From: a virus
Taxonomy: Duplodnaviria; Heunggongvirae; Uroviricota; Caudoviricetes
Reading direction: 5' to 3' (one strand)
IMG/VR virus record: IMGVR_UViG_3300035688_000604
Length of the DNA: 64,000 bases
Numbering within the stretch: the stretch's first letter is position 1; each line of letters begins with the position of its first letter. Of this stretch, positions 28,181 to 55,383 are shown piece after piece. The notes under the pieces were generated by a model. It saw only the letters and a list, made by a program, of their open reading frames with translations, did no database searches and was not told the origin of the DNA. The translations under genes were made by a program, and so were the position numbers.

Positions 28181-28182
28181 TA

Positions 28183-28736: not shown

Positions 28737-28738
28737 TT

Positions 28739-29040: not shown

Positions 29041-29044
29041 TCAA

Positions 29045-29894: not shown

Positions 29895-29901
29895 TTTTCA
29901 A

Positions 29902-30150
29902 TCACATCCTTTCAAATCCTTTTCTGATAAAATCACTCATGAAATTCAAAGCCTTCGATTTTGAAATATTTTCAGCGAGCACCTTTTCTTTTCCAGTATA
30001 AGTGTTCCTCAACACTACTTCCTTTTTTTGTATGCGATAAACAATAGCATTATTCACCTTATAATAAACACCTTCTGAAAATGCTATATAATTCGGTTCG
30101 GTATCCAAAACCCAATTTTTAGGAATCCTTAAATTAATTTTATGAACCAT
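29902..30150 (-). CDS. MVHK-array small protein 12 (82 aa)
   Basis: MVHK start at 30148-50. The longer track version is an artefact. Confidence 0.55.
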   Translation of the reverse strand: MVHKINLRIPKNWVLDTEPNYIAFSEGVYYKVNNAIVYRIQKKEVVLRNTYTGKEKVLAENISKSKALNFMSDFIRKGFERM

Positions 30151-30422
30151 TATAATGACCTCGCCCATTTTTCTATTTCAATTGGATGAAGATTAGATAA
30201 ATCATTCTTTTCTTCTTCCGTTAATAATTTATCATAATATTTATCAACATTTTTTCTCGTTATACCAAGTTTTTTTGCTTTCTTGAACATATCCTTTGCG
30301 AGTTTTTTATGTGATGAAATATCTTTCGGAGTATTTGCTACATTTTCAGCATAATCAGTATAATCTTCTCCTGTTTGCCAATATAAAATTCCTTTTTTTA
30401 GATTTTTAATTTTATGAACCAT
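30150..30422 (-). CDS. MVHK-array small protein 13 (90 aa)
   Basis: TAATG coupling on both sides. Confidence 0.55.
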   Translation of the reverse strand: MVHKIKNLKKGILYWQTGEDYTDYAENVANTPKDISSHKKLAKDMFKKAKKLGITRKNVDKYYDKLLTEEEKNDLSNLHPIEIEKWARSL

Positions 30423-30721
30423 TATAAATCCCTCTTGTTGTGATAACCAGCATCGACATAAATGAACCTTTTATGATTCAATTCATGATTGAACCTGTCT
30501 TCTTCTTTGACCAACCCAAGTTTCTTCAGTTCATCATATCCCGTCTGCTTCCAAGAATCCCCGTATCCATAAACCACTCCACTATAAGCAACCTGTTCGT
30601 TGGTATCGACATCTATCACAGTAGTCGAATGGTAAGTGTTTCCATTGACTTTATCGAACCATCTCTTGCCTATTATGATATACTTCTTGAGTTTTTTTGA
30701 TTTCAATATTTTATGAACCAT
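30422..30721 (-). CDS. MVHK-array small protein 14 (99 aa)
   Basis: ORF-track entry. Confidence 0.55.
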   Translation of the reverse strand: MVHKILKSKKLKKYIIIGKRWFDKVNGNTYHSTTVIDVDTNEQVAYSGVVYGYGDSWKQTGYDELKKLGLVKEEDRFNHELNHKRFIYVDAGYHNKRDL

Positions 30722-30723
30722 TT

Positions 30724-30876
30724 TTATTCATCTTCCAGTATATTTTCTATTGTTGCTTTTAATCCTTCATCAGTTTTATTGCCCCAAGTAGTTTTGTAAT
30801 AACCATCCTTTCCTTTATGCAATTGCAAAATTTCTTTCAATTTTTCAAATGTTTCTGTTTTTAATTTGTGAACCAT
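30724..30876 (-). CDS. MVHK-array small protein 15 (50 aa)
   Basis: Manual translation gives MVHKLKTETFEKLKEILQLHKGKDGYYKTTWGNKTDEGLKATIENILEDE. Confidence 0.45.
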   Translation of the reverse strand: MVHKLKTETFEKLKEILQLHKGKDGYYKTTWGNKTDEGLKATIENILEDE

Positions 30877-30879
30877 TAT

Positions 30880-31041
30880 TTACACCTTTTCATAAGTCAA
30901 TGCAAACTTATCAAATCCTATTATTTTTTCCGATATTAGATTATAGCCTTTGTTCTCTAACATAGATTTCATTTTTTCTGCTTTTTCAATACTTTTCAAA
31001 TTGCCAAAATCTACTTTGACTTTTCTTATTTTATGAACCAT
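30880..31041 (-). CDS. MVHK-array small protein 16 (53 aa)
   Basis: Manual translation gives MVHKIRKVKVDFGNLKSIEKAEKMKSMLENKGYNLISEKIIGFDKFALTYEKV. Confidence 0.45.
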   Translation of the reverse strand: MVHKIRKVKVDFGNLKSIEKAEKMKSMLENKGYNLISEKIIGFDKFALTYEKV

Positions 31042-31046
31042 TTATC

Positions 31047-31175
31047 TCACTTTATCCAATACTTATCAGTCTTCGGACTGTCAATACATTTTGCACATGG
31101 AATGTGATGACCCGCAGTTGGGCTAAATTTACCACATACGATGCATCTTAACATTCTTTGTTTTTTATGAACCAT
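31047..31175 (-). CDS. MVHK-array small protein 17 (42 aa, Zn-ribbon)
   Basis: Manual translation gives MVHKKQRMLRCIVCGKFSPTAGHHIPCAKCIDSPKTDKYWIK. Confidence 0.45.
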   Translation of the reverse strand: MVHKKQRMLRCIVCGKFSPTAGHHIPCAKCIDSPKTDKYWIK

Positions 31176-31177
31176 GA

Positions 31178-31432
31178 TTAATCAACCTCTAAAACAAACT
31201 CTTTTGTCATTATTCTCTTCAATTCAGGTTTTATTTTTTTCTTGTCCTTGACGAATGAAGATGCCATCATATCTCCTTTTTTTATTCCCCAGTCGAACCA
31301 ATAATCTTTCCCATCCTTGCGGACTGCAACAAAACCTCTTAATCCCCTGTATTCTGCACCGTCTTTAAAGGCTCTGAATAATTTCCACCCTTCTGGAAGT
31401 TCATTCTTTTTTAATTTCATTAAGTGAACCAT
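31178..31432 (-). CDS. MVHK-array small protein 18 (84 aa, MVHL)
   Basis: ORF-track entry. Confidence 0.55.
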   Translation of the reverse strand: MVHLMKLKKNELPEGWKLFRAFKDGAEYRGLRGFVAVRKDGKDYWFDWGIKKGDMMASSFVKDKKKIKPELKRIMTKEFVLEVD

Positions 31433-31716
31433 TACATCACCTTCTTATAATGCGGAAGATTTCTAATCCTGCTGTAATTGACAACTTTTGATTTAAATTC
31501 TGGCTCTTTATTGAATCTTTTCTGGAATGCATCGACAAAAGTTGTGGCATCCGCATCCTCTTCCAGATATGCAAATTTACCGTCTGGGGTTTGATAACTA
31601 TAACCAGTTATTTTATCTGCTATGCCAAGTTCCTTTAATTCTTCTATCGGGACTTTTATCCAACCGTGACTTGCATCTGAAGTGAACAAATATTTTCCTT
31701 TGATTTTATGAACCAT
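31432..31716 (-). CDS. MVHK-array small protein 19 (94 aa)
   Basis: ORF-track entry. Confidence 0.55.
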   Translation of the reverse strand: MVHKIKGKYLFTSDASHGWIKVPIEELKELGIADKITGYSYQTPDGKFAYLEEDADATTFVDAFQKRFNKEPEFKSKVVNYSRIRNLPHYKKVM

Positions 31717-31720
31717 TTAA

Positions 31721-31996
31721 TCACCATAATTCTTTTTTAAGTTTTTCATTTACTTCTTTTCTTGTTTTAGCGAAAACCCAACCAAATTTAGTCCTTCCGA
31801 CAAATCCTTTTGTTCTGTGCAATCCAAATTTTGTTGAAAATGTTTGCGGAAAAGGGAATCCGCCTTTTTTATAATCCCAATCTTTCACTTGCTTGTCATA
31901 TTGAATTAAAGCCAAACGATTGTATTCGCTAACTGGAATTATTTCTCCTATTGATACATTTTCGCTCATAACAGTTTGTTGTCGCTTATGAACCAT
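31721..31996 (-). CDS. MVHK-array small protein 20 (91 aa)
   Basis: ORF-track entry. Confidence 0.55.
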   Translation of the reverse strand: MVHKRQQTVMSENVSIGEIIPVSEYNRLALIQYDKQVKDWDYKKGGFPFPQTFSTKFGLHRTKGFVGRTKFGWVFAKTRKEVNEKLKKELW

Positions 31997-32002
31997 TATA
32001 AA

Positions 32003-32149
32003 TCAACCTCTAAATTTCTTTTTAGTCAAATCATACTCCTTTTCTGTTAAATAAGAATAACTTTGAAGAAATTCTTCTTTTGATAATTTTTTAAAATCCC
32101 TCATCTTTTCTTTATCGTCTAAAAAATCTGTATATTTTATTCTATGCAT
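32003..32149 (-). CDS. MVHK-array variant 20b (48 aa) starting MHR (ATGCATAGA; looks like a 3-nt deletion of the GTT codon)
   Basis: Manual translation gives MHRIKYTDFLDDKEKMRDFKKLSKEEFLQSYSYLTEKEYDLTKKKFRG. Confidence 0.4.
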   Translation of the reverse strand: MHRIKYTDFLDDKEKMRDFKKLSKEEFLQSYSYLTEKEYDLTKKKFRG

Positions 32150-32151
32150 AA

Positions 32152-32328
32152 TTATTTCCTCGCTCCTTTTATAGCACTTTCTAATTCATCCATCTCATCT
32201 GCGATGTATTGTTGTTTGACATAACTTCCAGTTGTATCTATTCCTGCTTCTTCGCAACTTTCGTAATTATCTTTTATTGCCTTTAGTAAATCTTTTGCTC
32301 TTGATTTTATCTCATTTTTGTGAACCAT
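32152..32328 (-). CDS. MVHK-array small protein 21 (58 aa, acidic)
   Basis: Manual translation gives MVHKNEIKSRAKDLLKAIKDNYESCEEAGIDTTGSYVKQQYIADEMDELESAIKGARK. Confidence 0.45.
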   Translation of the reverse strand: MVHKNEIKSRAKDLLKAIKDNYESCEEAGIDTTGSYVKQQYIADEMDELESAIKGARK

Positions 32329-32580
32329 TCATTTCACCCATTTTTTTCTCCATTCAGGTTTATGAAAATTGATAACATCCGTGACTATATCATAAGTTGC
32401 TCTGTCTTTTGGGTCTTGTAAATCTAAAATTCCTTCTCCTTCTTTTAAAATTTTGAATAATCTTTTGGATTCCTCTGCATATTCTCTATCACCAAATGGG
32501 TCTGTTTTGTCTTCTTTCTTGAATATCCTTTCCAACTTTTCAATCATTTCTTTTCTCGTAAATTTAGATTTATGAACCAT
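32329..32580 (-). CDS. MVHK-array small protein 22 (83 aa)
   Basis: ORF-track entry. TGAATG junction. Confidence 0.55.
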   Translation of the reverse strand: MVHKSKFTRKEMIEKLERIFKKEDKTDPFGDREYAEESKRLFKILKEGEGILDLQDPKDRATYDIVTDVINFHKPEWRKKWVK

Positions 32581-32731
32581 TTTATCACCAATTTATTTTA
32601 CCACCAAGATAATCAATAGTTTTTATTACCGTATCCTCATCTTTATCTGAAAGTTTATTATCATCATATAATTCTTGCAATCTATCAATCAATTCCCTTT
32701 TCTTAATATTCCAAACTCTTTTGTGAACCAT
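32581..32731 (-). pseudogene. MVHK-array member 23, frameshifted (MVHKRVWNIKKGN*, then a -1 frame ORF ...RLQELYDDNKLSDKDEDTVIKTIDYLGGKINW*)
   Basis: Its N-terminus resembles the upstream neighbour (MVHKRIWKGFK), suggesting a decayed partial duplicate. The frame shifts at AAGAAAGGG. Confidence 0.4.
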
Positions 32732-32736
32732 TTAAA

Positions 32737-33069
32737 TTACCTGTATTTTTTTAATAATTTTTTAAAACCCTTTACTTCACTTTTTTCTAAATATTTTTTT
32801 GAATATTTTTCTGGGGCTGAAGTGCCAAAAATATCTTCCTTTTCTTTTTTAGTAAAATTTTTTAACATTCTTTTTTCTATAGGGACTAATGGAATCTCCC
32901 TGTTTGGCAAATCTACCCAATCGGCAATGACTGTTTTCATCGCTTCTTTTGTTATTGGTTTATTTCCATAACCTTCAATACCCTCGTAAAAATCTGGGTC
33001 TATCATATTAAGATTTTCCCCATGTTGTATCTCGAATTTAAATCCTTTCCAAATTCTTTTATGAACCAT
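32737..33069 (-). CDS. MVHK-array small protein 24 (110 aa)
   Basis: MVHKRIWKGF at 33067-69. The track's N-terminal extension is an artefact. Confidence 0.55.
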   Translation of the reverse strand: MVHKRIWKGFKFEIQHGENLNMIDPDFYEGIEGYGNKPITKEAMKTVIADWVDLPNREIPLVPIEKRMLKNFTKKEKEDIFGTSAPEKYSKKYLEKSEVKGFKKLLKKYR

Positions 33070-33070
33070 A

Positions 33071-33187
33071 TTAATCATTCCTACCATATTGCGGTTTCCC
33101 ACAATCTCTACAAAATATCCCTCTCATGGTTTCCCATGATATTTTCTTGCTCCCACAAAATTTGCATTTCATTCTTTTGTGAACCAA
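33071..33187 (-). CDS. MVHK-array small protein 25 (38 aa, TTG start, Zn-ribbon)
   Basis: Manual translation gives (M)VHKRMKCKFCGSKKISWETMRGIFCRDCGKPQYGRND. Confidence 0.4.
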   Translation of the reverse strand: MVHKRMKCKFCGSKKISWETMRGIFCRDCGKPQYGRND

Positions 33188-33238
33188 ATCATCTCACCTA
33201 TATTCTAAATCCTATAGTTAGATTTTTAAACCTTACTT

Positions 33239-33541
33239 TTACTTCAAAATAACTTTCGGGAACTGCTTTCTGAACCCTGAAACACTCATCTCATAACCAT
33301 TGTAAGCAACCAACGGAGATTCCACTTTCGCTAATTTGGTATATGGATGCCCAACAAAAAGTGTCTTTTTCTTTTCTTTTGAAAACCTATTAGCCTCTTT
33401 CAACGTCTTGAAAACATAATAAAAATCGCTTTCTCCACTTGTAGGATGAGCCCACACTCTTATCTGCGGATGTTTGAGTTTCCCTCTTGTCTCTTGAATT
33501 ATATCAATCATTCCTTTGATTTTTTTAGTCTTATGAACCAT
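33239..33541 (-). CDS. MVHK-array small protein 26 (100 aa)
   Basis: ORF-track entry. A 51 bp AT-rich spacer (33188-33238) downstream may hold an internal promoter. Confidence 0.55.
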   Translation of the reverse strand: MVHKTKKIKGMIDIIQETRGKLKHPQIRVWAHPTSGESDFYYVFKTLKEANRFSKEKKKTLFVGHPYTKLAKVESPLVAYNGYEMSVSGFRKQFPKVILK

Positions 33542-33545
33542 TCAA

Positions 33546-33734
33546 TCATCTCGTTACCCAGACTTTCCATTCCTTTCCATATTTTTTAACTTCTACTTTC
33601 GGTTTTTTCTTGGAATAGATGTTGACCCATTCTTCCTTCTTTTTCGTCAATGGCGGAGACATTATATTTATTGTCAATTTATTCAGTTCAACTTCTGTCA
33701 TACTTTTATGTCTTTTAAAGACTTTGTGAACCAT
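33546..33734 (-). CDS. MVHK-array small protein 27 (62 aa), first gene of the minus-strand array
   Basis: ORF-track entry. GGTGAAAGTATGGTTCAC junction. Confidence 0.55.
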   Translation of the reverse strand: MVHKVFKRHKSMTEVELNKLTINIMSPPLTKKKEEWVNIYSKKKPKVEVKKYGKEWKVWVTR

Positions 33735-33817
33735 ACTTTCACCTACTTAATAATAGCACTATTAAATATTTAAATATTTCTAAAAAATTTAAATATTTAT
33801 ACATACATAGATTATAC
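33735..33817. promoter_or_regulatory. AT-rich bidirectional promoter region of the MVHK array (repeated AAATATTTA boxes)
   Basis: 83 bp between the divergent MVHK genes: ...attaaatatttaaatatttctaaaaaatttaaatatttatacatacat... Confidence 0.4.
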
Positions 33818-34018
33818 ATGGTTCACAAGATGCGATTGCCAAAAAAAGTCGTAATTTACCCAAGAGGATTTTATAAAGAAAGTGCTGAAGGTTTCATGGG
33901 GATATTTTTCCAAAGGAAGTCTTTGTTAGAATACCAGCATACAAAACTGACCCTGAATATGCTGAACGTGGTAGTGTTGCAACTCATGAAACAATGCATC
34001 AGGTTTGGAGAAAATTAA
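33818..34018 (+). CDS. MVHK-array small protein, plus strand (66 aa, MVHKMRLPKK)
   Basis: ATGGTTCACAAG start on the plus strand, divergent from the main array. Confidence 0.5.
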   Translation: MVHKMRLPKKVVIYPRGFYKESAEGFMGIFFQRKSLLEYQHTKLTLNMLNVVVLQLMKQCIRFGEN

Positions 34019-34236
34019 ACACTAAGGAAAAAGTCATGTTTATGAAGAAAATGGGGAAAGTTGAGAAATTACCTTCTGAGTTGAAAGGTTACAACCCAGT
34101 TTTGCAGGCTATGAAAAAAACAGCACCTAAAAAAGATATATTATCAATGAAAAAAATAGGCGTGAGCCCAGAAAAATTAGTAACTGCCACAGAGACTTTC
34201 CCAAGAATGGGAGCATATTGGGTTTGGGGGTATTAA
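33994..34236 (+). CDS. small basic protein (80 aa, MHQ...), overlaps the previous ORF by 25 nt
   Basis: ORF-track entry. The overlap could mark a frameshifted longer gene. Confidence 0.35.
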   Translation: MHQVWRKLNTKEKVMFMKKMGKVEKLPSELKGYNPVLQAMKKTAPKKDILSMKKIGVSPEKLVTATETFPRMGAYWVWGY

Positions 34237-34237
34237 A

Positions 34238-34456
34238 ATGCATAAAAGACGAGAAGATTTAGTCACACCAGAACAGTATCCAGAAGCATTCAAGTATTTT
34301 AAATATTTAATGAAAAAACATGGGATTAAGAGGTCGAGACTTCTTAAACGGGAAGGTGAAGTTGAAGAAAAAACAAGATATATACAAAAAATTCCTCAGA
34401 GAGAATTCAGGGAAGCGGTGATAACATTAAAAAATCATCATAAACCTGAATTTTAA
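34238..34456 (+). CDS. MVHK-array variant (72 aa) starting MHKR (ATGCATAAAAGA; looks like a GTT-deleted version of ATGGTTCATAAA)
   Basis: ORF-track entry. Confidence 0.45.
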   Translation: MHKRREDLVTPEQYPEAFKYFKYLMKKHGIKRSRLLKREGEVEEKTRYIQKIPQREFREAVITLKNHHKPEF

Positions 34457-34830
34457 TACTCGCCAACTATCATCTTGAACTTTTCCTCATCTACACCTTT
34501 CAGCATCTTGAATCCGTCACCCAGCATATTGAAATGTGAGTGTGTTGTAAGGTATAGAACCCAGTCCCCGCTTTCTTTCGGTGGGAATTCTTTTCTTTCT
34601 CCTTTGAAGACCTGAGCGAGTTTGGTGAGTTCGTATATATCAACTTTCTTCGAGAAGACGCAACCTATAAGGAAGATGTTTGGTTTTATGAAGAAGAAGT
34701 TTAATCCTGTTAAAGTATCAGAATCATACCTGCTATCAATCTCCCCCATGAAAACTTTGGCATCGCTGAAACTCTCAAATCCAAAGAGTATATCATAGGT
34801 ATCCATATCTGAATGGTAAAAGTCTTCCAT
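34453..34830 (-). CDS. hypothetical protein
   Basis: 125 aa ORF, convergent with the plus-strand MVHK genes. Confidence 0.4.
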   Translation of the reverse strand: MEDFYHSDMDTYDILFGFESFSDAKVFMGEIDSRYDSDTLTGLNFFFIKPNIFLIGCVFSKKVDIYELTKLAQVFKGERKEFPPKESGDWVLYLTTHSHFNMLGDGFKMLKGVDEEKFKMIVGEY

Positions 34831-34953
34831 GAAGGAAGTTTCAGACCTTAAAGATTTAAATTGGTATGTATATACTAAACAAACGAAAAGCCTTTATATT
34901 AGGATGTGTTACTATCGTTTAGTGACCCTATATATAATAGGGGGGAATAAGGC

Positions 34954-40215: not shown

Positions 40216-40290
40216 TTGCGAGAGTCGGATTTGAACCGACAATCTCTGATTCATGAGACCAGTATGTTAACCAAGTTACACCATCTCGCA
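40216..40290 (-). tRNA. tRNA with CAT anticodon (Met or Ile2), CCA not encoded
   Basis: RC reads TGCGAGA TG GTGT AACTTGGTTA ACAT A CTGGT CTCATGA ATCAG AGATT GTCGG TTCAAAT CCGAC TCTCGCA A. Good cloverleaf with a 7-bp acceptor stem and TTCAAAT T-loop. Confidence 0.8.
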
Positions 40291-40823: not shown

Positions 40824-41174
40824 TTATTTTGTTATCGTATATTTAAGTTCTTTCATTTTTCTTAATTCTCTGCGAATCTTCAATTGTGGTTTAGGATAAA
40901 TGATTATCATTATATCGATGACCGAGACCATCCTTTTTTTCTTTCTGACCTTCCAATATTTTCTCCCATAATTATCCATCAAACCTATTATCTTCAGCCA
41001 TTCTTTTGGAAGAATAAACCCCCTATCAGCAAGAATTAGAATGTCTATGTCAGACTTTTTCTCCACATATTTTTTAAACCTGACAGAACCGAAGATTGTA
41101 TAAACCAATTTCTTGTTTAGAACTCTTTCGCATTCTGAGACGAATTCTTCTGCAATCTTCTCTGGTGACATCAT
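40824..41174 (-). CDS. minimal nucleotidyltransferase (Pol beta superfamily, MNT-like)
   Basis: IFGSVRFKKYVEKKSDIDILILAD shows the GS...DxD NTase signature. Confidence 0.5.
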   Translation of the reverse strand: MMSPEKIAEEFVSECERVLNKKLVYTIFGSVRFKKYVEKKSDIDILILADRGFILPKEWLKIIGLMDNYGRKYWKVRKKKRMVSVIDIMIIIYPKPQLKIRRELRKMKELKYTITK

Positions 41175-43484: not shown

Positions 43485-44270
43485 ATGCCAGAACCAAGCC
43501 AAGATTCGTCCAAAGATGAGCCAAGAGATTTCGAGCAGGAAGTGATGAAGGAAGAGAGCAAGAAAGTAAGAAACAAATTGAGCCAGAACAACGCCAAGAC
43601 TGAACCAGAAGTAATCCATTCAGAGCCAGTAGATACGATTGTAAAGTGTCCATCATGTGGAAAGAACAAAGTCAACTGGGTCTTTACAAAGCGTGGAGCA
43701 AGTTTAAAATGCATGAGTTGTGGTTTTGACACGCATGTTTTGCAGGATGTTTTCTCTCATCGCAGGAAAGAATTGGAAGTCCTTCCTATACTCAAAGAAA
43801 TATTTTCTCAATTGATTTTCAAAGAAAATGTCCCGATAGATACTGATATTTTTTCTGGAGAAATAGGTCATGCAAAAACAAGGTATGACTTTGGAGTTTA
43901 CTGGTTCTCAAAAAAGATTGCCAAATGCAAAGTCGCAGTCCTTCAGAATACAACAAGAGATAATTACCTAAACGCTGAAGAGCAATATATCCAAGGTCGT
44001 CCAAAAGTGTTCGAGTATCTAAGTAAAATCAACGCAATCATGGTGTTTTATTTTGTCGATGAGCCTGATAATACTAAAAAGATAGCGATGGCTGATTGTA
44101 GGGAAATGAAGAAATTTGCTGTGATGGTAAAAGACCGTTTTAATAATGACCAATATCATTTGAACAAAGAAATAAGAAAAGTTATAATCAAGACTTCATT
44201 CAAGGATTTTCAAACTCTGATATTCAGGAATTTTTATGATTTGATAACCGAAGGTGTCTATATTGTCTGA
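43485..44270 (+). CDS. hypothetical protein with Zn-ribbon
   Basis: 261 aa. CPSCGKNKVNW...CMSCGFDTH. Confidence 0.45.
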   Translation: MPEPSQDSSKDEPRDFEQEVMKEESKKVRNKLSQNNAKTEPEVIHSEPVDTIVKCPSCGKNKVNWVFTKRGASLKCMSCGFDTHVLQDVFSHRRKELEVLPILKEIFSQLIFKENVPIDTDIFSGEIGHAKTRYDFGVYWFSKKIAKCKVAVLQNTTRDNYLNAEEQYIQGRPKVFEYLSKINAIMVFYFVDEPDNTKKIAMADCREMKKFAVMVKDRFNNDQYHLNKEIRKVIIKTSFKDFQTLIFRNFYDLITEGVYIV

Positions 44271-44775
44271 AAGAATTCAAACAACATTGAAAGGAGAAAA
44301 AATAATAAAAGATTTTACGCTCAATGAAGCGAGAAGGATAGCCGAAGAAATTTGTGATTTCTTAAAAGACCATGTGATTAAAATCGAGATAGTCGGTTCT
44401 ATACGAAGAAAGAGGAATATAGTTCATGATATAGACATAGTTGCTGTAGCAAAGCCCTATTTCCTTCAGAGAATTTATCAGTTGCCTGAAATTAAGATGA
44501 AAAAATCTGGAAAGAAACTCATAGAATTTGAATACAAAAAAATGCAGGTGGATGTTTATTTAAGTAACGAGGAAACTTTTGAGACAATACGATTGATAAG
44601 GACTGGTTCTGCCGAACATAACAAAAAATTGTGCATGATAGCCATTCGTAAGGGGATGCATCTTTATGCAAATGGCGGTGGTCTTTGGAAAGAAATTAAC
44701 AAAGTTACTGATACCGAAGAGGGAATCTTAAAAGAATTGTTGGGAAAAGTTCCATTGCCAGAGGAACGAGAATGA
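44254..44775 (+). CDS. minimal DNA polymerase X-like nucleotidyltransferase (173 aa; palm + thumb only)
   Basis: IVGSIRRKRNIVHDIDIVAV matches the Pol beta GS..RG...D.D palm. IRTGSAEHNKKLCMIAIRKGMHLYANG matches the Pol beta TGSxxFNxxMR thumb. Size comparable to ASFV Pol X. Confidence 0.55.
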   Translation: MSILSERIQTTLKGEKIIKDFTLNEARRIAEEICDFLKDHVIKIEIVGSIRRKRNIVHDIDIVAVAKPYFLQRIYQLPEIKMKKSGKKLIEFEYKKMQVDVYLSNEETFETIRLIRTGSAEHNKKLCMIAIRKGMHLYANGGGLWKEINKVTDTEEGILKELLGKVPLPEERE

Positions 44776-46523: not shown

Positions 46524-46701
46524 TGTCTGCTTGTTCTGCAAAAAAACAAAGGATTGGAATAGCACTATTGTGCTGAAAACAAAAACCGCAAATGTAGAAG
46601 TCACTGTCTGTCCGAATTGTAGGATAACAAAAACAATTTTAGATATGAACAGAAAAATAACAAGACTTTTCTTTAAGAAATTCAAAAAAGAACATGATTA
46701 A
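46501..46701 (+). CDS. small Zn-ribbon protein
   Basis: CLFCKK...CPNC. Confidence 0.3.
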   Translation: MEEIKNVDVCLFCKKTKDWNSTIVLKTKTANVEVTVCPNCRITKTILDMNRKITRLFFKKFKKEHD

Positions 46702-48196
46702 AATGGATGATGATGTTACAAAAATCAAAGAGTCTGTCAACGATAGCCTTTCTAAATTAGATGAACTTATCGAAAAAATAAAAATCGAAAGAGAAGAGAT
46801 TAAAAAAACACTTGAAAATAAGATAGAACAACTTTTTATTGGGAAATACGACAAAGAAGAAATAGACGAGTTCCTTAAAGAACCTTATGTTATCATACCT
46901 AAAAGAGAGAACGAATTCTATGTCATTGCTCCAAGATGGATTGATTTTCAAATTGGATGGTTGGAAAGGCAGACTAAAAGTTACAATATTTTTATAGTAA
47001 ATCGTTATATTCAGTGGATAGCACAAGTCCCTGAAGTTTTAAAGCAAAAATTAAAGTTTCCTACACCCCTGCCATTGAAAATTGTAGATGGTGTGTTATT
47101 AACTGGAAAAGAGCATCAAGAAGATGCCATGCGAAAATACAAGAGTTATCTTGTTTCAAGAGTCGGTTCTGACAGAATAAAAATAAAAAAAGGTAATGAA
47201 TTCAAATTGATAGCACAGTTAATTGAAGATGGTATCCTTCCCTTCATACCGAGACCCATCCAAGAAGAAGATTTGCTTGAATGGTCTGGAATTGAATTAA
47301 GGAAATATCAAGAGGATGCATGGAAAGAATTTTTAGACAAAGGTGCTTGCGGGATTTATTGGTCATTTGGTGCAGGAAAATCTTTCTTTGGTGTCTATGT
47401 TTTAGCGAGATTGAAAGGTGAAAAAATTGTAGTAGTCCCTACTTTGACTTTGAAAGAGCAGTGGGAAGAAAGGATAAAAAAATATATACCAGAAAGGATG
47501 AATGAGATTGAGGTTGTGACTTATCACGCTTATGATAGAATCAGGAACAGAAACCTTACATTAATAATTTTTGATGAATGTCAGCATCTTCCTGCAAATA
47601 CCTTCATAAGGCTCGCTACTTTGAATGCAAAATATAGGTTAGGGTTTTCTGGCTCTCCGTTCAGAGAAGATAAAAGAGAGAATTATATATTTGCTTTGAC
47701 TGGTTTCCCAATCGGAATGTCATGGGATGAACTACTAAAAATGAAAGTGGTCAAGATGCCCATCTTCAAACTTTATCTTTTTATGAACAACCAAGAAAAA
47801 ATTAGAAAGATTGATGAACTATTGAAACTGCCTTTGAAAACTTTGATATTTTGTGATTCACTTGAATTCGGAGAAAGGATTTCAAAAGCGTTCAACATTC
47901 CTTTTATTTACGGTGCTACTACTGGAAGAATGGATATTTTAAGGGAATCCAATGTGAGTGTCATTTCAAGGGTCGGAGATGAAGGGATTTCTTTACCAGA
48001 ATTAGAGAGGGTGATAGAGGTCTCATTTTTATTCGGTTCAAGAGCACAAGAAAGTCAAAGGTTCGGGAGATTGATGCATTCACAAAAGGAAGAACCAGAA
48101 CATATAATCTTGGCGACTGAAGAAGAATTTGAAAAATATAATAAAAGGTTCTATGCCATCACAGAAAGAGGGGGAAGATTGGAAGTGATAAGATGA
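46694..48196 (+). CDS. XPB/Rad25-like superfamily 2 helicase
   Basis: Walker A SFGAGKSFFG, motif II IFDECQHL, motif VI QESQRFGRLMH. N-terminal domain ahead of the helicase core. Confidence 0.55.
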   Translation: MIKMDDDVTKIKESVNDSLSKLDELIEKIKIEREEIKKTLENKIEQLFIGKYDKEEIDEFLKEPYVIIPKRENEFYVIAPRWIDFQIGWLERQTKSYNIFIVNRYIQWIAQVPEVLKQKLKFPTPLPLKIVDGVLLTGKEHQEDAMRKYKSYLVSRVGSDRIKIKKGNEFKLIAQLIEDGILPFIPRPIQEEDLLEWSGIELRKYQEDAWKEFLDKGACGIYWSFGAGKSFFGVYVLARLKGEKIVVVPTLTLKEQWEERIKKYIPERMNEIEVVTYHAYDRIRNRNLTLIIFDECQHLPANTFIRLATLNAKYRLGFSGSPFREDKRENYIFALTGFPIGMSWDELLKMKVVKMPIFKLYLFMNNQEKIRKIDELLKLPLKTLIFCDSLEFGERISKAFNIPFIYGATTGRMDILRESNVSVISRVGDEGISLPELERVIEVSFLFGSRAQESQRFGRLMHSQKEEPEHIILATEEEFEKYNKRFYAITERGGRLEVIR

Positions 48197-50076: not shown

Positions 50077-51816
50077 ATGATTGAAGATTCTATGCTGTTT
50101 TGGTATCCAAAAATAAAGATTTTAGATATTCCTCAACCTAAGACGGAAATATACGAGATACCAAAGAATATTCTTGAAAATCTTTGTGAAGAAAACATGC
50201 AGAATCTTGATATGAATGCAGTAAAGGAAGTTGCAAATAGAATCGGCTATCCGCTTTTTTTGAGGACTGACCTTGCTTCTGGAAAGTTTTTTTGGAAAAG
50301 AAGTTGTTTCGTTGAAAAGGAAGAAGATTTGAAACAGCATATATTTGAAGTTATTTCCTTTAACCAGTGTGCCGATATATGTGGTCTTCCTTTTGAGGCT
50401 CTGGTCTTTAGAGAATACATACCCATGAAGAATTTGTTCACTGCATTTTACGGTGAGATGCCAGTCAACCCCGAAATAAGATTCTTTGTAAAAGACGGGG
50501 AAGTAAAATGTTGGCATTGGTATTGGTGTTGCTGTAAAGATACAGAAGTCCTTACTGATAATGGGTTTAAAAAATTTAAAGATTTAATAAAAGAAAAGAT
50601 ATTCACTCTTAATCCAAAAACAAGAAAAATAGAATTATTACCTTTCAATAAAGTGATTAGTTATCATTATAAAGGAAAAATGATTCATATTTCTGACAAA
50701 ACATTCGATATGTTAGTAACGCCAGACCATAAACTACCAGTTTTTACTCAAAATAATAAAAAAATTAATTTAATTAAAGCAGAGGACTTGAAATATAATT
50801 ATAAAATCCCACGAACAGGCATCTGGAAGGGAAAGAAAAGAGAGCGGATAAAGATTGGTGATTTGACTTTTAGAACATCTGATTTTTTTGAATTTATGGG
50901 ATATTATATTTCAGAAGGTTCTATAGGGAAATCAATAACAAGCCCAAACATAATACTTTCTCAAATACCAAAAAAACAAAAGATAATTACTGATTGTTTG
51001 GAAAGGATGAAAATTGAACATAAAATATATGGTAAGAATATAACTATTTCAAAGATACAAACAAAGTATAGGGCTTTATATGATTATCTGTTGAAACTTG
51101 GTAAATCTTATGAAAAGTTCGTTCCTAAAGAACTCAAAGAATATTCCCCAGAATATTTAAAGAATTTTCTTAATGCTTATTGTTTTGGGGATGGATATAT
51201 AGACAATACTTCAAAATTTGATTCTATTATCAGATTATTTTCCACTTCTTCTTATAAATTAGCGAATGATTTATGTGAAATCATATTAAAAACTGGAAAG
51301 CGACCATCAATCTATCAAAAACATAAAAAATCTAAATTCTTTATTAAAAAATGGTATCGGACTAAACATCCTGTTTTTACTGTTGTTGAAGGAAATACAA
51401 AAAATTTCTGTTATGAGCACCCATCATCACGAAAAAACAAAAATAAAGTAAAGATAATTGATTATGATGATATGGTTTATTGTGTTTCTATGCCCCAAAA
51501 TCATATTATTTATATTAAAAGAAACGGCAAATGTTCTTGGACTGGAAATTGTGAAGAGGCGATAAAACAACCGTCTGTAAGCAATTGGAAAGAGATACTT
51601 GAAAATGAAAAGAAAAGTGTTTTTGGCAATGAAATATTATGGTTGACAGCAGATGCGAGAAAGGTATCGAAAGTTCTTGATGGTTATTGGTCTGTGGATT
51701 TTTGCAAGGCGAAGAATGATAAATGGATATTAATTGATTGTGCGATTGGAAAAAATTCATGGCATCCAGAAGATTGCAAGTATGCTAAATACAAAAAGAG
51801 AGGTGATTTAATTTAA
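50077..51816 (+). CDS. ATP-grasp-like enzyme interrupted by an intein with a LAGLIDADG-like motif
   Basis: Exteins: GYPLFLRTDLASGK..., EIRFFVKDGEVKCWHWYW | CEEAIKQPSV...WILIDCAIGKNSWHP. The insert begins CCKDTEVLTDNGF (intein block A) and contains LNAYCFGDGYID. Confidence 0.5.
   Translation: MIEDSMLFWYPKIKILDIPQPKTEIYEIPKNILENLCEENMQNLDMNAVKEVANRIGYPLFLRTDLASGKFFWKRSCFVEKEEDLKQHIFEVISFNQCADICGLPFEALVFREYIPMKNLFTAFYGEMPVNPEIRFFVKDGEVKCWHWYWCCCKDTEVLTDNGFKKFKDLIKEKIFTLNPKTRKIELLPFNKVISYHYKGKMIHISDKTFDMLVTPDHKLPVFTQNNKKINLIKAEDLKYNYKIPRTGIWKGKKRERIKIGDLTFRTSDFFEFMGYYISEGSIGKSITSPNIILSQIPKKQKIITDCLERMKIEHKIYGKNITISKIQTKYRALYDYLLKLGKSYEKFVPKELKEYSPEYLKNFLNAYCFGDGYIDNTSKFDSIIRLFSTSSYKLANDLCEIILKTGKRPSIYQKHKKSKFFIKKWYRTKHPVFTVVEGNTKNFCYEHPSSRKNKNKVKIIDYDDMVYCVSMPQNHIIYIKRNGKCSWTGNCEEAIKQPSVSNWKEILENEKKSVFGNEILWLTADARKVSKVLDGYWSVDFCKAKNDKWILIDCAIGKNSWHPEDCKYAKYKKRGDLI
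50530..51549 (+). mobile_element. intein (~340 aa) with LAGLIDADG-like endonuclease motif
   Basis: An N-terminal Cys followed by KDTEVL, LNAYCFGDGYID (LAGLIDADG-like), and a C-terminal ...NHIIYIKRNGKCSWTGN|C. Boundaries are approximate; the C-terminal splice motif is atypical (no canonical HN). Confidence 0.5.
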
Positions 51817-52904: not shown

Positions 52905-54338
52905 ATGGAAACTATTCAGATTAGCACAACCCCAGAAGGGATATTTCATAAGATGAGAAAAAGTTACACTGACATATATGATGCTATTCGAGAAGATGTA
53001 GTCAATGCATTTGAAGAAAATGCGGAAATAATTGATATTAACATTGAAATAAAAAATGGTAGTTCTTATGTCACTGTTATTGGTGGGCAAAACCCCCTGA
53101 CACATGAAAAATTGAATATATGGTTTACTTCAACAAAACTGAATAGTTTTGATGTCGGGCAAATGGGGGAAGCCAGATGGGCAGTATTTGCTTTCGGTGT
53201 TAAAAAAAAGGTTTATGAACAACAAGACAAAAAATTCGTTCTTCATGATTTCAGTTGTGATTTGCCAGTTAAAACCGATTATAATGAAAAAGAGACAAGA
53301 ACTACTTACATTATTCCAGAAAAAATTGACATAGAAATGTTAAAAACAGAATTGGAAATGACTTTTGCATTGTTATTAAGAAATGAATATAACATCATGG
53401 TTAATGGGGAGAAATTGAATTGGAAAAGTATCCTTCCAACATGGAAACCCATTTGTGAAGACGAAGTTCTGATTTATAACAAACCATTTTTAGTCATAGG
53501 GTGGTATGTCCAGAACACAGATAAAGAAGCCGATTACTATTTTGATAGCCCATTCCCACAACCATTTTTGGGATTGAGGGGTGCTCTAAAAGGTATAACA
53601 ATTCAATATGAAAGAATGGGAATGACAGATAGAACAAATCATCTCTTCGGGTTTGTTGTTGATATAGAGGGAAGAGAATTCAGCCCACAAGTCAACAACC
53701 AGAAAACTGGTTTGATTTCAAGCCCAAGAATTAATCATATAATACATGAAGTGAGAAAACATCTTCGTAAATACAAGGAGTTCAATCCTAAACCATTAAC
53801 TACAAGTGAAACATTCAAAGAACTTCTTAAATTTCTTCCAAATGTTTTTATCTCACCAAGAAAATGTCCAAAGTGTGGTAGCACCAAATTAAAATCTGAT
53901 GGTAAGAGATATATCTGCCAAAAATGTGGTCATACTTTCTTTAAAAAATGGTCAAAAAAAAGAAAAGATTACAGTAAGAAAGGGATGAAAACAACCAACC
54001 CCCTTACGCAGGGTATTGAAGGAGAAGAAGGTTATTGGGAAAATGAAGGATTTTTAGTCCCTAATATAGACCCAAACAGACCGAATGTGTGGGGAATAAA
54101 CGTAAAAGCAAACGAAGAGGGTCATTATAAATATCCAAAACTAAAATATGAGTATGATAGATTCAGCAAGAACCAAACTGCTAATAACGCAAGGACGCTT
54201 ATTCCGATTTTAGTTAGAGTTAGATTGAAGAAAAAATTCATAGAAAAAAACGAGGAAACGCTCCGAGATGAATGGGTTCAACTCGACAATCTATTAGACA
54301 ATGCGTTAAAGGGAAAGATATTAGATGTGGAAACCTGA
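52905..54338 (+). CDS. hypothetical protein with central Zn-ribbon
   Basis: 477 aa. RKCPKCGSTKLKSDGKRYICQKCGHTF. Confidence 0.45.
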   Translation: METIQISTTPEGIFHKMRKSYTDIYDAIREDVVNAFEENAEIIDINIEIKNGSSYVTVIGGQNPLTHEKLNIWFTSTKLNSFDVGQMGEARWAVFAFGVKKKVYEQQDKKFVLHDFSCDLPVKTDYNEKETRTTYIIPEKIDIEMLKTELEMTFALLLRNEYNIMVNGEKLNWKSILPTWKPICEDEVLIYNKPFLVIGWYVQNTDKEADYYFDSPFPQPFLGLRGALKGITIQYERMGMTDRTNHLFGFVVDIEGREFSPQVNNQKTGLISSPRINHIIHEVRKHLRKYKEFNPKPLTTSETFKELLKFLPNVFISPRKCPKCGSTKLKSDGKRYICQKCGHTFFKKWSKKRKDYSKKGMKTTNPLTQGIEGEEGYWENEGFLVPNIDPNRPNVWGINVKANEEGHYKYPKLKYEYDRFSKNQTANNARTLIPILVRVRLKKKFIEKNEETLRDEWVQLDNLLDNALKGKILDVET

Positions 54339-55383
54339 GAATATCAAATGGAAATTCAAGGATGACTGTAGCGACAGGAGCAGGAACAAGTGGATTGCAT
54401 TTGCGACATTCACTCAGTATCAAAGGAGAAAGTTCTTAGAAAGAGAAGGACTTCAATACAAAGATGTTCCAAGATGTAAACTCTGTCATCACCCCTTCTT
54501 TAAATGTGTCTGTGAAGATGAAGGTTATCATAAAAAAATAAGACAAAGAAAAAAACTTCTGCATCTTCCCTTCGAGGAAAAACTTGAATATTCAAGGAAA
54601 ATTGTTGAGAAGACATTAAAAAAATTGAATGAAAAGAAAATCTATCTGGCATATTCTGGCGGGATAGATAGTGAATGCTGTGTTCAATTGTTTAAAGAAG
54701 CGATAATGGATGGTCGTGTTAAAGTTATTTTTGGGGCTACTCTTGTAGATTTTCCAGAGACAATAAAACGTGTGGATGAACTGGAAAAAGAACTTAAAAT
54801 AAAGATTATCAGAGCGATGCCAGAAAAGGGAATATCATTCAGATACATTGTGGAAAAATATGGTCTACCGCTTCATTCTCGTTCATCAAGCAATAAAAAG
54901 TTGAGGATTGCCACATCAAAATGTTGTGAGTTGTTGAAAAAAAGACCCATGAATAAGTTGACCAAAGATACTGATGCATTGATTATGGGTTTGAGAATCG
55001 AGGAGAATCAATACAGAATGATGCTTCTGTTCGATAAAGGTGCTTTTTTCTATTCAAAGGGTCATAAAAACTGGAGAATATATCCAGTCGCTTACTGGTC
55101 TATCGATGACATCTGGAAATTCCAAGAGAAGATGGGTTTCAACTACAATAAAATTTATGATAACACAAACTGCAACAAGAAGGGATTTTATCGGTTGTCA
55201 GATAAAAAATATTATCAAATAAGAACTGGGTGTTGGTCATGCCCACAGTCTATAAAAGGTGGTTATCTTGTCTGGCTTGAAAGATACTATCCAAACTTTT
55301 ATAAGGCATTAATGGTTAATTTTGGTCTGATAAAACATCACAATATGTCGTTGGAATTGTCTTTAAAATTAAAATCTGATTAA
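54325..55383 (+). CDS. PP-loop ATP pyrophosphatase (PAPS reductase-like family) with Cys-containing N-terminal extension
   Basis: KIYLAYSGGIDSECCV shows the SGGxDS PP-loop. Confidence 0.55.
   Translation: MWKPENIKWKFKDDCSDRSRNKWIAFATFTQYQRRKFLEREGLQYKDVPRCKLCHHPFFKCVCEDEGYHKKIRQRKKLLHLPFEEKLEYSRKIVEKTLKKLNEKKIYLAYSGGIDSECCVQLFKEAIMDGRVKVIFGATLVDFPETIKRVDELEKELKIKIIRAMPEKGISFRYIVEKYGLPLHSRSSSNKKLRIATSKCCELLKKRPMNKLTKDTDALIMGLRIEENQYRMMLLFDKGAFFYSKGHKNWRIYPVAYWSIDDIWKFQEKMGFNYNKIYDNTNCNKKGFYRLSDKKYYQIRTGCWSCPQSIKGGYLVWLERYYPNFYKALMVNFGLIKHHNMSLELSLKLKSD

What the first reader, a model, noticed from the sequence alone, without database searches (positions are those of the whole stretch)
44254..44775. 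Minimal 173 aa Pol X-like nucleotidyltransferase (palm and thumb only)
The ORF carries the Pol beta catalytic GS-x-RR...D-x-D motif (GSIRRKRNIVHDIDIV) and a thumb-like TGSAEHNKKLCMIAIRKG segment. It has no 8-kDa, fingers or PHP domain. Its size matches the smallest known Pol X enzymes (ASFV-type). It sits in a block with an XPB-like helicase, a Zn-ribbon protein and other repair-like genes, suggesting a compact gap-filling repair module.
Basis: partly seen in the sequence, partly recalled or inferred. Interest (0 to 1): 0.55.

Follow-up and report, generated by a model that had tools for sequence, protein, structure and literature searches.

The report
Minimal viral Pol X DNA polymerase
A 173-residue gene in an archaeal virus-like element encodes a stripped-down family X DNA polymerase with only the catalytic palm and thumb, one of a large, untested group of virus proteins as small as or smaller than the smallest DNA polymerase known.

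Summary
The ORF at 44254..44775 (+) is real and both quoted motifs are present. It is a family X DNA polymerase made of palm and thumb only.

Evidence:
- A 24-sequence family profile hits only Pol X structures: Thermus PolX 1e-17, ASFV Pol X 1e-11, Pol lambda 1e-10.
- All 24 members match the Pfam Pol-beta thumb. Only 1 of 24 touches the MNT-type domain, at E = 0.007.
- The AlphaFold model (pLDDT 92.9) superposes on Thermus PolX (TM 0.80) and ASFV Pol X (about 0.70).
- The metal and dNTP ligands G48, S49, R51, R52, D59, D61, D/E100, T117-G118-S119 and N123 are kept in at least 167 of 171 relatives.

The stated refutation test (best match to MNT/KNTase) is not met.

It is not an ASFV orthologue. 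It scores closer to the prokaryotic PolX core, lacks the ASFV 5'-phosphate pocket, and places the Pol beta R258/F272 pair the other way round (Y102/R116).

The family has at least 190 clusters at 50% identity, mostly 140-200 aa, on tailed-virus contigs. Complete members go down to 139 aa.

The overlapping upstream gene is a Zn-ribbon protein with a PD-(D/E)xK nuclease fold. The element also encodes PCNA, a separate PolB-type exonuclease, MCM and an XPB-like helicase. No ligase, AP endonuclease or glycosylase was found.

Most likely role: distributive short-gap filling on viral DNA. This is inferred, not shown.

The parts
44254..44775 (+). Mini Pol X gene, 173 aa, 20.1 kDa, pI 9.1. Alternative start at TTG 44263.
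44254..44319 (+). N-terminal extension, res 1-22, low pLDDT. It holds QTTLKG (res 9-14, 44278-44295), which sits at the same position as the QKNLFG clamp-binding-type motif of the closest relative.
44320..44577 (+). Palm, res 23-108. Contains the dNTP-binding GSIRR (44395-44409), catalytic D59-I-D61 (44428-44436) and the third acidic residue D100 (44551-44553). Y102 sits at the Pol beta R258 position.
44578..44772 (+). Thumb, res 109-173. Contains R116-T-G-S-A-E-H-N123 (44599-44622): R116 is at the Pol beta F272 position and N123 at N279. The C-terminal P169-E-E-R172-E matches the end of the PolX core.
43485..44270 (+). Upstream gene overlapping the PolX start by 17 nt. It has a disordered N-terminus, a Zn ribbon and a C-terminal PD-(D/E)xK nuclease-fold domain resembling D212 and Hjc.
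46694..48196 (+). XPB/Rad25-like SF2 helicase, same strand, 1.9 kb downstream. It is also linked to mini PolX in L002/L003.
15466..16317 (-). PCNA-type sliding clamp encoded by the element. Candidate tether for PolX; this is hypothesis only.
14659..15243 (-). Stand-alone PolB-type (DEDD) 3'-5' exonuclease near PCNA. Candidate trans-acting proofreader; this is hypothesis only.
58475..61695 (-). MCM helicase (58475..60583) and an Orc/Cdc6-like gene (60580..61695). These are the archaeal-type replication initiation genes that define the replicon type.

Best explanation
The gene encodes a catalytically competent family X DNA polymerase reduced to palm plus thumb. It is carried by an archaeal virus-like element of about 90-100 kb that has its own MCM, Orc/Cdc6-like protein, PCNA, exonuclease and helicase.

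Inferred mechanism:
- GSIRR (res 48-52) and D59/D61/D100 bind Mg-dNTP and catalyse nucleotidyl transfer.
- The thumb (T117-G-S, N123, K124) checks the nascent base pair.
- With no 8-kDa lyase domain, no fingers, no PHP domain and no exonuclease, the enzyme should be distributive and should fill gaps of one to a few nucleotides.
- Such gaps would arise when nucleases process viral DNA during repair, recombination or maturation of replication intermediates. One candidate is the co-transcribed Zn-ribbon/PD-(D/E)xK protein.
- A host ligase would have to seal the nick, because none is seen in the window.

Shown: family membership, fold, conservation of catalytic residues, gene overlap with a nuclease-fold protein. 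Inferred: polymerase activity, DNA substrate, gap-filling role.
For: - Profile of 24 relatives against PDB: the 60 hits shown are all Pol X. Thermus PolX 1.2e-17, ASFV Pol X 1.2e-11, Pol lambda 1e-10, then Pol mu and Pol beta.
- Pfam: thumb matched in 24/24 members, palm in 15/24.
- AF2 model pLDDT 92.9. Foldseek TM 0.78-0.80 to Thermus PolX and 0.68-0.72 to ASFV Pol X.
- Residue equivalences come from the HMM alignments.
- Conservation in 171 relatives: G48 170, S49 171, R51/R52 170, D59 170, D61 171, D/E100 167, T117 170, G118 171, S119 169, N123 168, R172 166.
- Basic protein, pI 9.1.
- The gene overlaps the upstream gene by 17 nt and the downstream gene by 4 nt.
- Other loci pair the polymerase with DNA-processing genes: RNase H plus XPB-like helicase next to mini PolX in L002/L003, and DNA ligase next to the 252-aa PolX of E. 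coli phage IME392.
- ASFV Pol X has the same architecture and is an established BER gap-filling enzyme (PMC5330486).
Against: - No biochemical data exist for any member.
- No AP endonuclease, glycosylase or ligase was found in the window.
- Neighbourhoods of relatives are very diverse, with no universally conserved partner.
- PolX is not in the stretch examined of a related element (L042) that keeps the nuclease, PCNA, exonuclease and helicase, so it looks like an accessory gene.
- The family lacks the Pol beta R283 equivalent (C127) and the ASFV 5'-P pocket (K125/K165/P167 in place of R125/T166/R168). How it grips gapped DNA is therefore unexplained.
- R116 at the F272 position has no counterpart in the Pol X enzymes compared here, and its effect on sugar or substrate choice is unknown.
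- The nuclease model has only moderate confidence (pLDDT 70.7), and I could not identify a canonical (D/E)xK triad in it.
Confidence: 0.65

Rival explanations
1. Clamp-tethered polymerase. The disordered N-terminal peptide binds the element's own PCNA, which replaces the missing DNA-binding domains and gives processivity. Together with the separate PolB-type exonuclease acting in trans, and with MCM, it could even serve as the element's own replicative or Okazaki-maturation polymerase.
For: - 8 of 58 family members with an N-terminal extension of at least 8 aa carry Q-x-x-[LM]-F, against 0.16 expected and 0 of 5000 shuffles. The motif always lies 14-23 aa before the core.
- The window's QTTLKG aligns with QKNLFG of its closest relative, P0002.
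- The window encodes PCNA and a stand-alone DEDD exonuclease.
- No replicative polymerase was found among the ORFs scanned.
Against: - The window's motif lacks the Phe and the aromatic pair of a canonical PIP box.
- 6 of the 8 carriers share a C-terminal KPxW tail and so form one subclade, which means few independent events.
- Most family members, including nearly all IMG/VR homologues, start at the core with no extension.
- PolX is not seen in L042, a relative that keeps PCNA and the exonuclease.
- The window covers only about two thirds of the element, so a PolB could lie outside it.
Confidence: 0.18
2. Template-independent terminal transferase or end-tailing enzyme that modifies viral or host DNA (or RNA) 3' ends, for example for genome-end chemistry or counter-defence.
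For: - Pol X members include TdT and Pol mu.
- Truncated viral PolX cores can be engineered into untemplated synthesisers (PMC13252658).
- The unusual R116 and the loss of the R283 equivalent could loosen template checking.
Against: - The model shows only short connections between the palm strands, with no long loop of the TdT/Pol mu Loop1 kind. The role of Loop1 in untemplated synthesis is from PMC1636348; I did not align the loop explicitly.
- The equivalents of the template/nascent-pair readers N279 and K280 (N123, K124 position) are retained, N123 in 168/171.
- The closest structures are gap-filling enzymes.
Confidence: 0.08
3. Catalytically dead Pol X relic that acts only as a DNA-binding or structural factor, as reported for non-canonical bacterial PolXs that lost polymerase activity.
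For: A sizeable fraction of bacterial PolX proteins have degenerate polymerase sites (PMC9226535, PMC12926913).
Against: All three acidic residues and the GSxRR and TGS motifs are intact here and in at least 167 of 171 relatives. Unlike those bacterial proteins, there is no PHP domain that could carry another activity.
Confidence: 0.04
4. MNT/KNTase-type minimal nucleotidyltransferase (toxin-antitoxin or resistance type), not a polymerase.
For: It is small and has the shared Pol-beta-superfamily GS...DxD palm. A true MNT-like gene lies nearby at 40824..41174.
Against: - PF01909 is not matched by this protein and is matched by only 1 of 24 relatives, at E = 0.007.
- The Pol X-specific thumb is matched in 24/24.
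- All top sequence and structure hits in the PDB are Pol X.
- No flanking gene gave a HEPN match in the Pfam scans.
Confidence: 0.01

Closest known systems
African swine fever virus Pol X (O174L, 174 aa; PDB 1JAJ, 5HRB etc.)
   Same: - Same architecture: palm plus thumb only, about 20 kDa, basic, with no 8-kDa, fingers, PHP or exonuclease domain.
- Same catalytic motifs: GSxRR, DxD, third Asp at residue 100, TG at 117-118.
- Aligns end to end, res 10-170 against 3-171. TM about 0.70.
- Also virus-encoded, in a genome that has its own PCNA.
   Different: - Only about 20% identity, and the family profile scores lower against it than against Thermus PolX (47.5 vs 67 bits).
- The ASFV 5'-P pocket R125/T166/R168 is K125/K165/P167 here.
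- The His115-Arg127 platform is I115/C127 here.
- F102/F116 are Y102/R116 here.
- The host is an archaeal virus-like element, not a eukaryotic giant virus.
- No adjacent AP endonuclease or ligase.
Polymerase core (palm+thumb) of bacterial/archaeal PolX, e.g. Thermus thermophilus PolX (PDB 3AU2/3AUO)
   Same: Best sequence match (E 1.2e-17, res 167-315 of 575) and best structural match (TM 0.78-0.80, rmsd 2.1-2.4 A, 24% identity). The C-terminal 'PxxRE' end of the core is shared.
   Different: Thermus PolX also has an 8-kDa domain, fingers with HhH motifs and a PHP exonuclease/AP-endonuclease domain, all absent here. R245/L259 of Thermus are Y102/R116 here.
Phage PolX of about 252 aa (Escherichia phage vB_EcoM_IME392 AXY86063.1, annotated 'putative DNA-directed DNA polymerase family X'; Vibrio phage 2.275.O AUS02698.1)
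   Same: Closest proteins in cultivated viruses (29-34% identity; top BFVD structural hits, TM 0.71-0.77). They lie in prokaryotic virus genomes, and the IME392 gene sits next to a DNA ligase.
   Different: They carry about 100 extra N-terminal residues. In IME392 this is an HHH_8 (8-kDa-type) domain. The window protein has none. Their hosts are bacteria.
Bacterial PolX2 group (Nucleic Acids Res 2026, PMC12926913)
   Same: Prokaryotic Pol X lacking both the 8-kDa and the PHP domains.
   Different: [quoted passage not shown] The mini form ends at the thumb and sits on viral contigs. I compared the two from the paper's description only, not by alignment.

Membership tests
DNA polymerase family X (Pol beta-like polymerases) | Pol-beta-type nucleotidyltransferase palm with hG[GS]x9-13Dh[DE]h and a third carboxylate (GSxRR...DxD...D) | tested here: met
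   G48-S-I-R-R52, D59-I-D61 and D100 align with the Thermus and ASFV catalytic residues. They are conserved in at least 167 of 171 relatives.
DNA polymerase family X (Pol beta-like polymerases) | Pol X-specific thumb (Pfam PF14791) with the (Y/h)(F/x)TGS...N dNTP/nascent-pair motif | tested here: met
   PF14791 matches res 115-173 at E 4e-5. That is 23.8 bits, just under the 25-bit cut-off, for this protein alone. It matches 24/24 family members, best 2.3e-13. T117-G-S119 and N123 are near-invariant.
DNA polymerase family X (Pol beta-like polymerases) | Three-dimensional palm+thumb fold superposable on solved Pol X structures | tested here: met
   AF2 pLDDT 92.9. All 50 top Foldseek PDB hits are Pol X, with TM up to 0.80.
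DNA polymerase family X (Pol beta-like polymerases) | Template-directed DNA polymerase activity | not testable with these tools
   Needs a primer-extension or gap-filling assay.
Canonical PolX core (Pol beta, Pol lambda, bacterial/archaeal PolX1) | N-terminal 8-kDa (dRP-lyase/5'-P-binding) domain and HhH fingers; PHP domain in prokaryotic PolX1 | tested here: not met
   No Pfam match to HHH_8, the lyase, fingers or PHP domains. The alignment to Thermus PolX covers only res 167-315 of 575. The model contains palm and thumb only.
ASFV-type Pol X (orthology, not just architecture) | 5'-phosphate pocket Arg125/Thr166/Arg168 and His115-Arg127 platform (PMC5330486); closer to ASFV Pol X than to other Pol X | tested here: not met
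   The aligned residues are K125/K165/P167 and I115/C127. The profile scores 47.5 bits against ASFV and 67 bits against Thermus PolX.
MNT/KNTase minimal nucleotidyltransferases (PF01909, often with a HEPN partner) | Match to NTP_transf_2, no Pol X thumb, adjacent HEPN gene | tested here: not met
   No PF01909 hit for this protein, and only 1 of 24 relatives at E 0.007. The thumb is present. The flanking genes are a nuclease-fold protein and a Cys-rich membrane-type protein.
Sliding-clamp client proteins | Terminal disordered PIP box (QxxhxxFF) or QxxLF clamp-binding peptide | tested here: inconclusive
   The window has QTTLKG at res 9-14 in a low-pLDDT tail. True QxxLF occurs at the homologous place in 8 relatives and is strongly enriched. 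Those 8 belong mostly to one subclade, and binding was not tested.

The most novel reading that the evidence does not exclude
Viruses of archaea and bacteria carry a large, uncharacterised lineage of natural 16-20 kDa Pol X enzymes. It arose by reduction of the prokaryotic PolX core independently of ASFV, and would include the smallest DNA polymerases known (complete members of 139-147 aa).

The missing DNA-binding domains would be replaced by tethering to a sliding clamp through a terminal QxxLF-type peptide. The window's version would work with the element's own PCNA and its separate proofreading exonuclease as a split, modular polymerase.
Probability: 0.15. Interest if true: 0.7.

Novelty: new variant of a known kind. 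Interest (0 to 1): 0.45.

Why it matters
ASFV Pol X is still described as the smallest known DNA polymerase (PMC13252658, 2026). Surveys of prokaryotic PolX (PMC9226535, PMC12926913) list only large multidomain forms. I found no mention of a mini form in the searchable literature on archaeal viruses.

This window belongs to a family with at least 190 clusters at 50% identity. All members have intact active sites, and many are 15-20% shorter than ASFV Pol X.

If these proteins are active, three things follow.
- They set a new lower size limit for a templated DNA polymerase.
- They offer compact scaffolds for enzymatic DNA synthesis.
- They show how an enzyme lacking the usual DNA-gripping domains finds its substrate, whether by an alternative basic surface, a swapped Arg/aromatic pair, or clamp tethering.

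They would also show that viruses of prokaryotes, like giant eukaryotic viruses, carry their own gap-filling repair polymerase. The identification itself is not surprising: automatic pipelines already label relatives as 'PolX'.

Tried and rejected
- PHROGs gave no hit for the protein.
- A genome-contig scan with the full alignment failed for lack of a conserved stretch. The rerun with 10 close sequences found only 4 loci: a Bathyarchaeota MAG, an unclassified bacterial MAG, an Omnitrophota SAG where the match lies in a 573-aa ORF, and a weak Thermoleophilia match that BLAST against the window ORFs did not reproduce. The host remains unassigned.
- All-vs-all clustering of ORFs from 41 loci found no partner gene conserved across the family. 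The neighbours I scanned are portal, HK97 capsid and methylases, which mark viral context rather than a repair operon.
- I looked for a replicative polymerase, ligase, AP endonuclease or glycosylase among about 50 window ORFs and found none. The 745-aa (7141..9378) and 477-aa (52905..54338) proteins remain unassigned.
- I looked for canonical PIP or QxxLF motifs at the termini of the window's nuclease, exonuclease, helicase and Hjc. There were none; only MCM has QFSLF, at res 12.
- C-terminal extensions of family members hold no clamp motif.
- Tandem repeats and Rfam gave nothing relevant to the gene: only tRNA-Met at 40216..40290.
- The MNT/KNTase reading is rejected. The dead-enzyme reading is rejected on conservation.
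- Literature searches for a viral or prokaryotic mini PolX returned nothing specific.
Full report
**1. Observation**

The ORF runs from GTG 44254 to the stop at 44773-44775 on the + strand and encodes 173 aa. GSIRRKRNIVHDIDIV is residues 48-63 and TGSAEHNKKLCMIAIRKG is residues 117-134.
- The gene overlaps the upstream gene (43485..44270) by 17 nt.
- Its stop overlaps the ATG of the next gene (ATGA at 44772-44775).
- JGI called the same ORF on a 99%-identical relative.
- A TTG at 44263 has GGTG 6 nt upstream, the arrangement also seen before the gene at 45445. The true product may therefore be 170 aa.

**2. What the protein is**

On its own the protein gives weak but coherent hits:
- Pfam Pol-beta thumb at 4e-5 (23.8 bits, cut-off 25) and palm at 0.08.
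- Thermus PolX at 1e-4 in the PDB.
- ASFV Pol X over its full length, query res 10-170 against 3-171, at 0.007-0.03.

The large protein database holds 24 relatives of 140-212 aa. I aligned them as A1. The profile makes the case clear:
- Thermus PolX 1.2e-17, ASFV Pol X 1.2e-11, Pol lambda 1e-10, then Pol mu and Pol beta. All 60 hits shown are Pol X.
- Every one of the 24 members matches the Pfam thumb and 15 match the palm. NTP_transf_2, the MNT type, is touched by one member at E = 0.007.

The AlphaFold2 model built on A1 has pLDDT 92.9 and pTM 0.84. It shows one helix, a five-stranded palm sheet, and a thumb made of two helices, a hairpin and a helix. Only residues 1-7 fall below pLDDT 50.
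- Foldseek against the PDB returns only Pol X structures among the top 50.
- TM normalised to the query is 0.78-0.80 for Thermus PolX and 0.68-0.72 for ASFV Pol X.

**3. Active site**

The HMM alignments equate these residues:

| Window | Thermus / Pol beta / ASFV equivalent |
|---|---|
| G48-S-I-R-R52 | GSxRR dNTP-binding motif |
| D59, D61, D100 | The three catalytic carboxylates (ASFV D49/D51/D100) |
| T117-G-S119 | TGS motif |
| N123 | Pol beta N279 |
| C-terminal P169-E-E-R-E | End of the PolX core (Thermus PPPLRE) |

Across 171 relatives these positions are almost invariant: G48 170, S49 171, R51 170, R52 170, D59 170, D61 171, D/E100 167, T117 170, G118 171, S119 169, N123 168, R172 166. 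This argues for an active enzyme under purifying selection.

The family also has its own signatures.
- Y102 (161/171) sits where Pol beta has R258, Thermus has R245 and ASFV has F102.
- R116 (161/171) sits where they have F272, L259 and F116. These equivalences are stated in PMC5330486.
- The Arg/aromatic pair therefore appears to be swapped between the two positions.
- The Pol beta R283 / ASFV R127 position is Cys or Ala here.
- The ASFV 5'-phosphate pocket (R125, T166, R168) corresponds to K125, K165 and P167, so it is not conserved.

**4. Relation to ASFV Pol X**

The architecture is the same, but orthology is not supported.
- The profile scores higher against the prokaryotic PolX core than against ASFV (67 vs 47.5 bits). 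The structural match points the same way.
- The ASFV-specific features are absent.
- Cultivated phages carry intermediate forms. E. coli phage IME392 has a 252-aa protein with an N-terminal HHH_8 (8-kDa-type) domain, annotated 'putative DNA-directed DNA polymerase family X' and adjacent to a DNA ligase. Vibrio phage 2.275.O has a 254-aa form. These two are also the top hits in the viral structure library.

My reading is that the prokaryotic PolX core was reduced independently within viruses of prokaryotes. This is an inference; I did not build a tree.

**5. Size and spread of the family**

An exhaustive HMM search of 1.84 billion cluster representatives gave 190 proteins at E <= 1e-30.
- The median length of the 172 sequences in hand is 167.5 aa, and 110 of them are shorter than 174 aa.
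- Complete members with all motifs and the C-terminal EPxxRE go down to 139-140 aa, or 15.8 kDa (P0066, P0015). Several are 147 aa.
- IMG/VR holds 32 viral contigs with relatives. The neighbours include an SPP1-type portal, an HK97-type capsid, an adaptor protein and DNA methylases.
- A pattern-limited scan found only 4 species-representative cellular genomes with a relative. One is a Bathyarchaeota MAG contig. One is an Omnitrophota genome in which the match lies in a 573-aa ORF, presumably a multidomain PolX.

On the literature side:
- A 2026 paper still calls AsfvPolX the smallest known DNA polymerase (PMC13252658).
- The two surveys of prokaryotic PolX describe only PolX1, PolX2 and PHP-only relatives (PMC12926913; PMC9226535).
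- My searches found no description of mini PolX in prokaryotic viruses.
- JGI's pipeline already names relatives 'DNA polymerase/3'-5' exonuclease PolX', so the family label is not new.

**6. Genomic setting**

The window has about 34% GC and is packed with small genes. It has one tRNA-Met and a strand switch with a change in GC-skew sign near 34 kb. It encodes:

| Gene | Coordinates |
|---|---|
| MCM | 58475..60583 |
| Orc/Cdc6-like (weak match) | 60580..61695 |
| PCNA | 15466..16317 |
| Stand-alone PolB-type 3'-5' exonuclease | 14659..15243 |
| Hjc homologue | 10406..10741 |
| XPB/Rad25-like helicase | 46694..48196 |

The window also holds glycosyltransferases, a B12/radical-SAM enzyme, a PAPS reductase and an intein-containing ATP-grasp gene.
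- The MCM's best matches are archaeal virus MCMs at about 30% identity.
- Near-identical and related contigs are 91-105 kb long.
- It is thus an archaeal virus-like or plasmid-like replicon. I found no capsid or terminase inside the window, so 'virus' is not proven for this element.
- No replicative polymerase, ligase, AP endonuclease or glycosylase turned up among the roughly 50 ORFs scanned.

**7. The 'repair module' claim**

The upstream gene, which overlaps the PolX start, has a disordered N-terminus, a Zn ribbon and a C-terminal domain.
- Its eight homologues are 58-71% identical.
- The AF2 model has pLDDT 70.7 overall and 77-93 in the C-terminal domain.
- It is therefore a PD-(D/E)xK-fold protein. 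I could not identify a clean catalytic triad, so nuclease activity is inferred.

In a related 104-kb element (L042) the homologue of this gene lies between PCNA plus a Zn-ribbon gene and the PolB-type exonuclease. The XPB-like helicase and the radical-SAM gene are a few kb away. No PolX appears in that 12.7-kb stretch.

In L002/L003 a 152-aa mini PolX is followed by RNase H, a LAGLIDADG gene and an XPB-like helicase. In L004 it lies 2 kb from an MCM.

So PolX repeatedly sits among DNA-processing genes, but it is an accessory gene with no fixed partner. In the window, the gene that overlaps its stop codon is a Cys-rich protein with an N-terminal hydrophobic segment, unrelated to repair. The module idea is partly supported.

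**8. Clamp-binding lead**

Of the 171 aligned proteins, 95 have fewer than 5 residues before the first core helix. The members that do have an extension often carry Q-x-x-[LM]-F: QSTLF, QPKLF, QPGLF, QRKLF, QEKMF, QKNLF, QTKLF.
- 8 of 58 extensions of at least 8 aa have the motif, against 0.16 expected and 0 of 5000 shuffles. It always lies 14-23 residues before the core.
- This is the bacterial beta-clamp-binding consensus and the first half of a PIP box (established knowledge; the PIP definition is also given in PMC10506467).
- The window has QTTLKG at the position where its closest relative has QKNLFG. The Phe is lost.

Caveats:
- 6 of the 8 carriers also share a C-terminal KPxW tail and so form one clade.
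- The IMG/VR homologues mostly lack any extension.
- No binding could be tested.

I rate clamp tethering of the window protein as possible but unproven, at about 0.2.

**9. Mechanism and verdict**

The best-supported reading is a distributive polymerase without proofreading that fills short gaps in the element's DNA after nucleolytic processing, with sealing by a host ligase.
- Membership in family X and the palm-plus-thumb-only architecture are shown.
- Catalytic competence is strongly implied by conservation.
- The substrate and the biological role are inferred from ASFV Pol X and Thermus PolX and from the gene neighbourhood.

Rivals, in order: clamp-tethered or replicative use, terminal transferase, dead relic, and MNT-type enzyme (refuted).

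On novelty, this is a new variant of a known kind. The family and the minimal architecture are known, and pipelines already label relatives. The prokaryotic-virus lineage, its sub-ASFV sizes, its altered active-site pair and its possible clamp motif have not been described in the literature I could search.

Interest is moderate (0.45): a solid and correct call, with relevance for biotechnology and enzymology, but not a conceptual surprise.

Noticed in passing
window 50077..51816 (+); L001 15824..16540: An ATP-grasp-like (R2K_3) gene is interrupted by an intein with a LAGLIDADG homing endonuclease. The near-identical relative L001 carries an intein-free 238-aa allele, which suggests recent intein gain or loss.
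   Followed up: partly
window 14659..15243 (-), 15203..15460 (-), 15466..16317 (-): A stand-alone PolB-type DEDD 3'-5' exonuclease (PHROG 'DNA polymerase exonuclease subunit'), an NrdR-like Zn-ribbon gene and a PCNA homologue lie side by side. The same set is conserved in the 104-kb relative L042. No cognate polymerase gene was seen in the window.
   Followed up: partly
[not shown]
   Followed up: yes
window 58475..61695 (-): An MCM helicase is immediately followed by a weak Orc/Cdc6-like gene. The MCM N-terminus carries QFSLF at residue 12, a clamp-binding-type motif.
   Followed up: no
window 40824..41174 (-) and 40216..40290 (-): A true MNT-type minimal nucleotidyltransferase (PF01909, E 1.8e-6) lies next to a tRNA-Met gene. 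It is a separate Pol-beta-superfamily protein and should not be confused with the PolX gene.
   Followed up: no
window ~27500..34900: A run of about 25 very small ORFs (50-125 aa) lies on the minus strand. It ends at a strand switch that coincides with the GC-skew sign change and the cumulative-skew minimum near 34 kb. This may be a replication origin or a divergent promoter region.
   Followed up: no
window 2698..5433 (-), 9487..10494 (+), 19844..27000 (-): Several family-2 glycosyltransferases, a PMT_2-type mannosyltransferase, a B12-binding radical-SAM enzyme, a SpoIIM-like membrane protein and a 910-aa Laminin_G_3/ConA-like protein. This is an unusually rich surface-glycan toolkit for a mobile element.
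   Followed up: no
window 52905..55383 (+): A 477-aa protein of unknown function with a central Zn ribbon overlaps the start of a PAPS-reductase-family gene (phrog_424), which suggests a functional pair.
   Followed up: partly
window 10406..10741 (+): A 111-aa ORF is 60% identical to the Hjc Holliday-junction resolvase gene of locus L002 (with the Pfam Hjc label).
   Followed up: partly
family members P0023, P0109, P0111, P0115, P0126, P0132, P0154: A subclade of mini PolX carries a conserved C-terminal tail E-[IV]-x-x-x-K-P-x-W after the core. In all but P0126 it occurs together with the N-terminal QxxLF motif. Its function is unknown.
   Followed up: no
window 63783..63849: A short tandem repeat with period 10-12/22 and 3-5 copies (ACCATACTGA/AACCATACGGGA) lies inside or next to the ORF at 63578..63910.
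   Followed up: no
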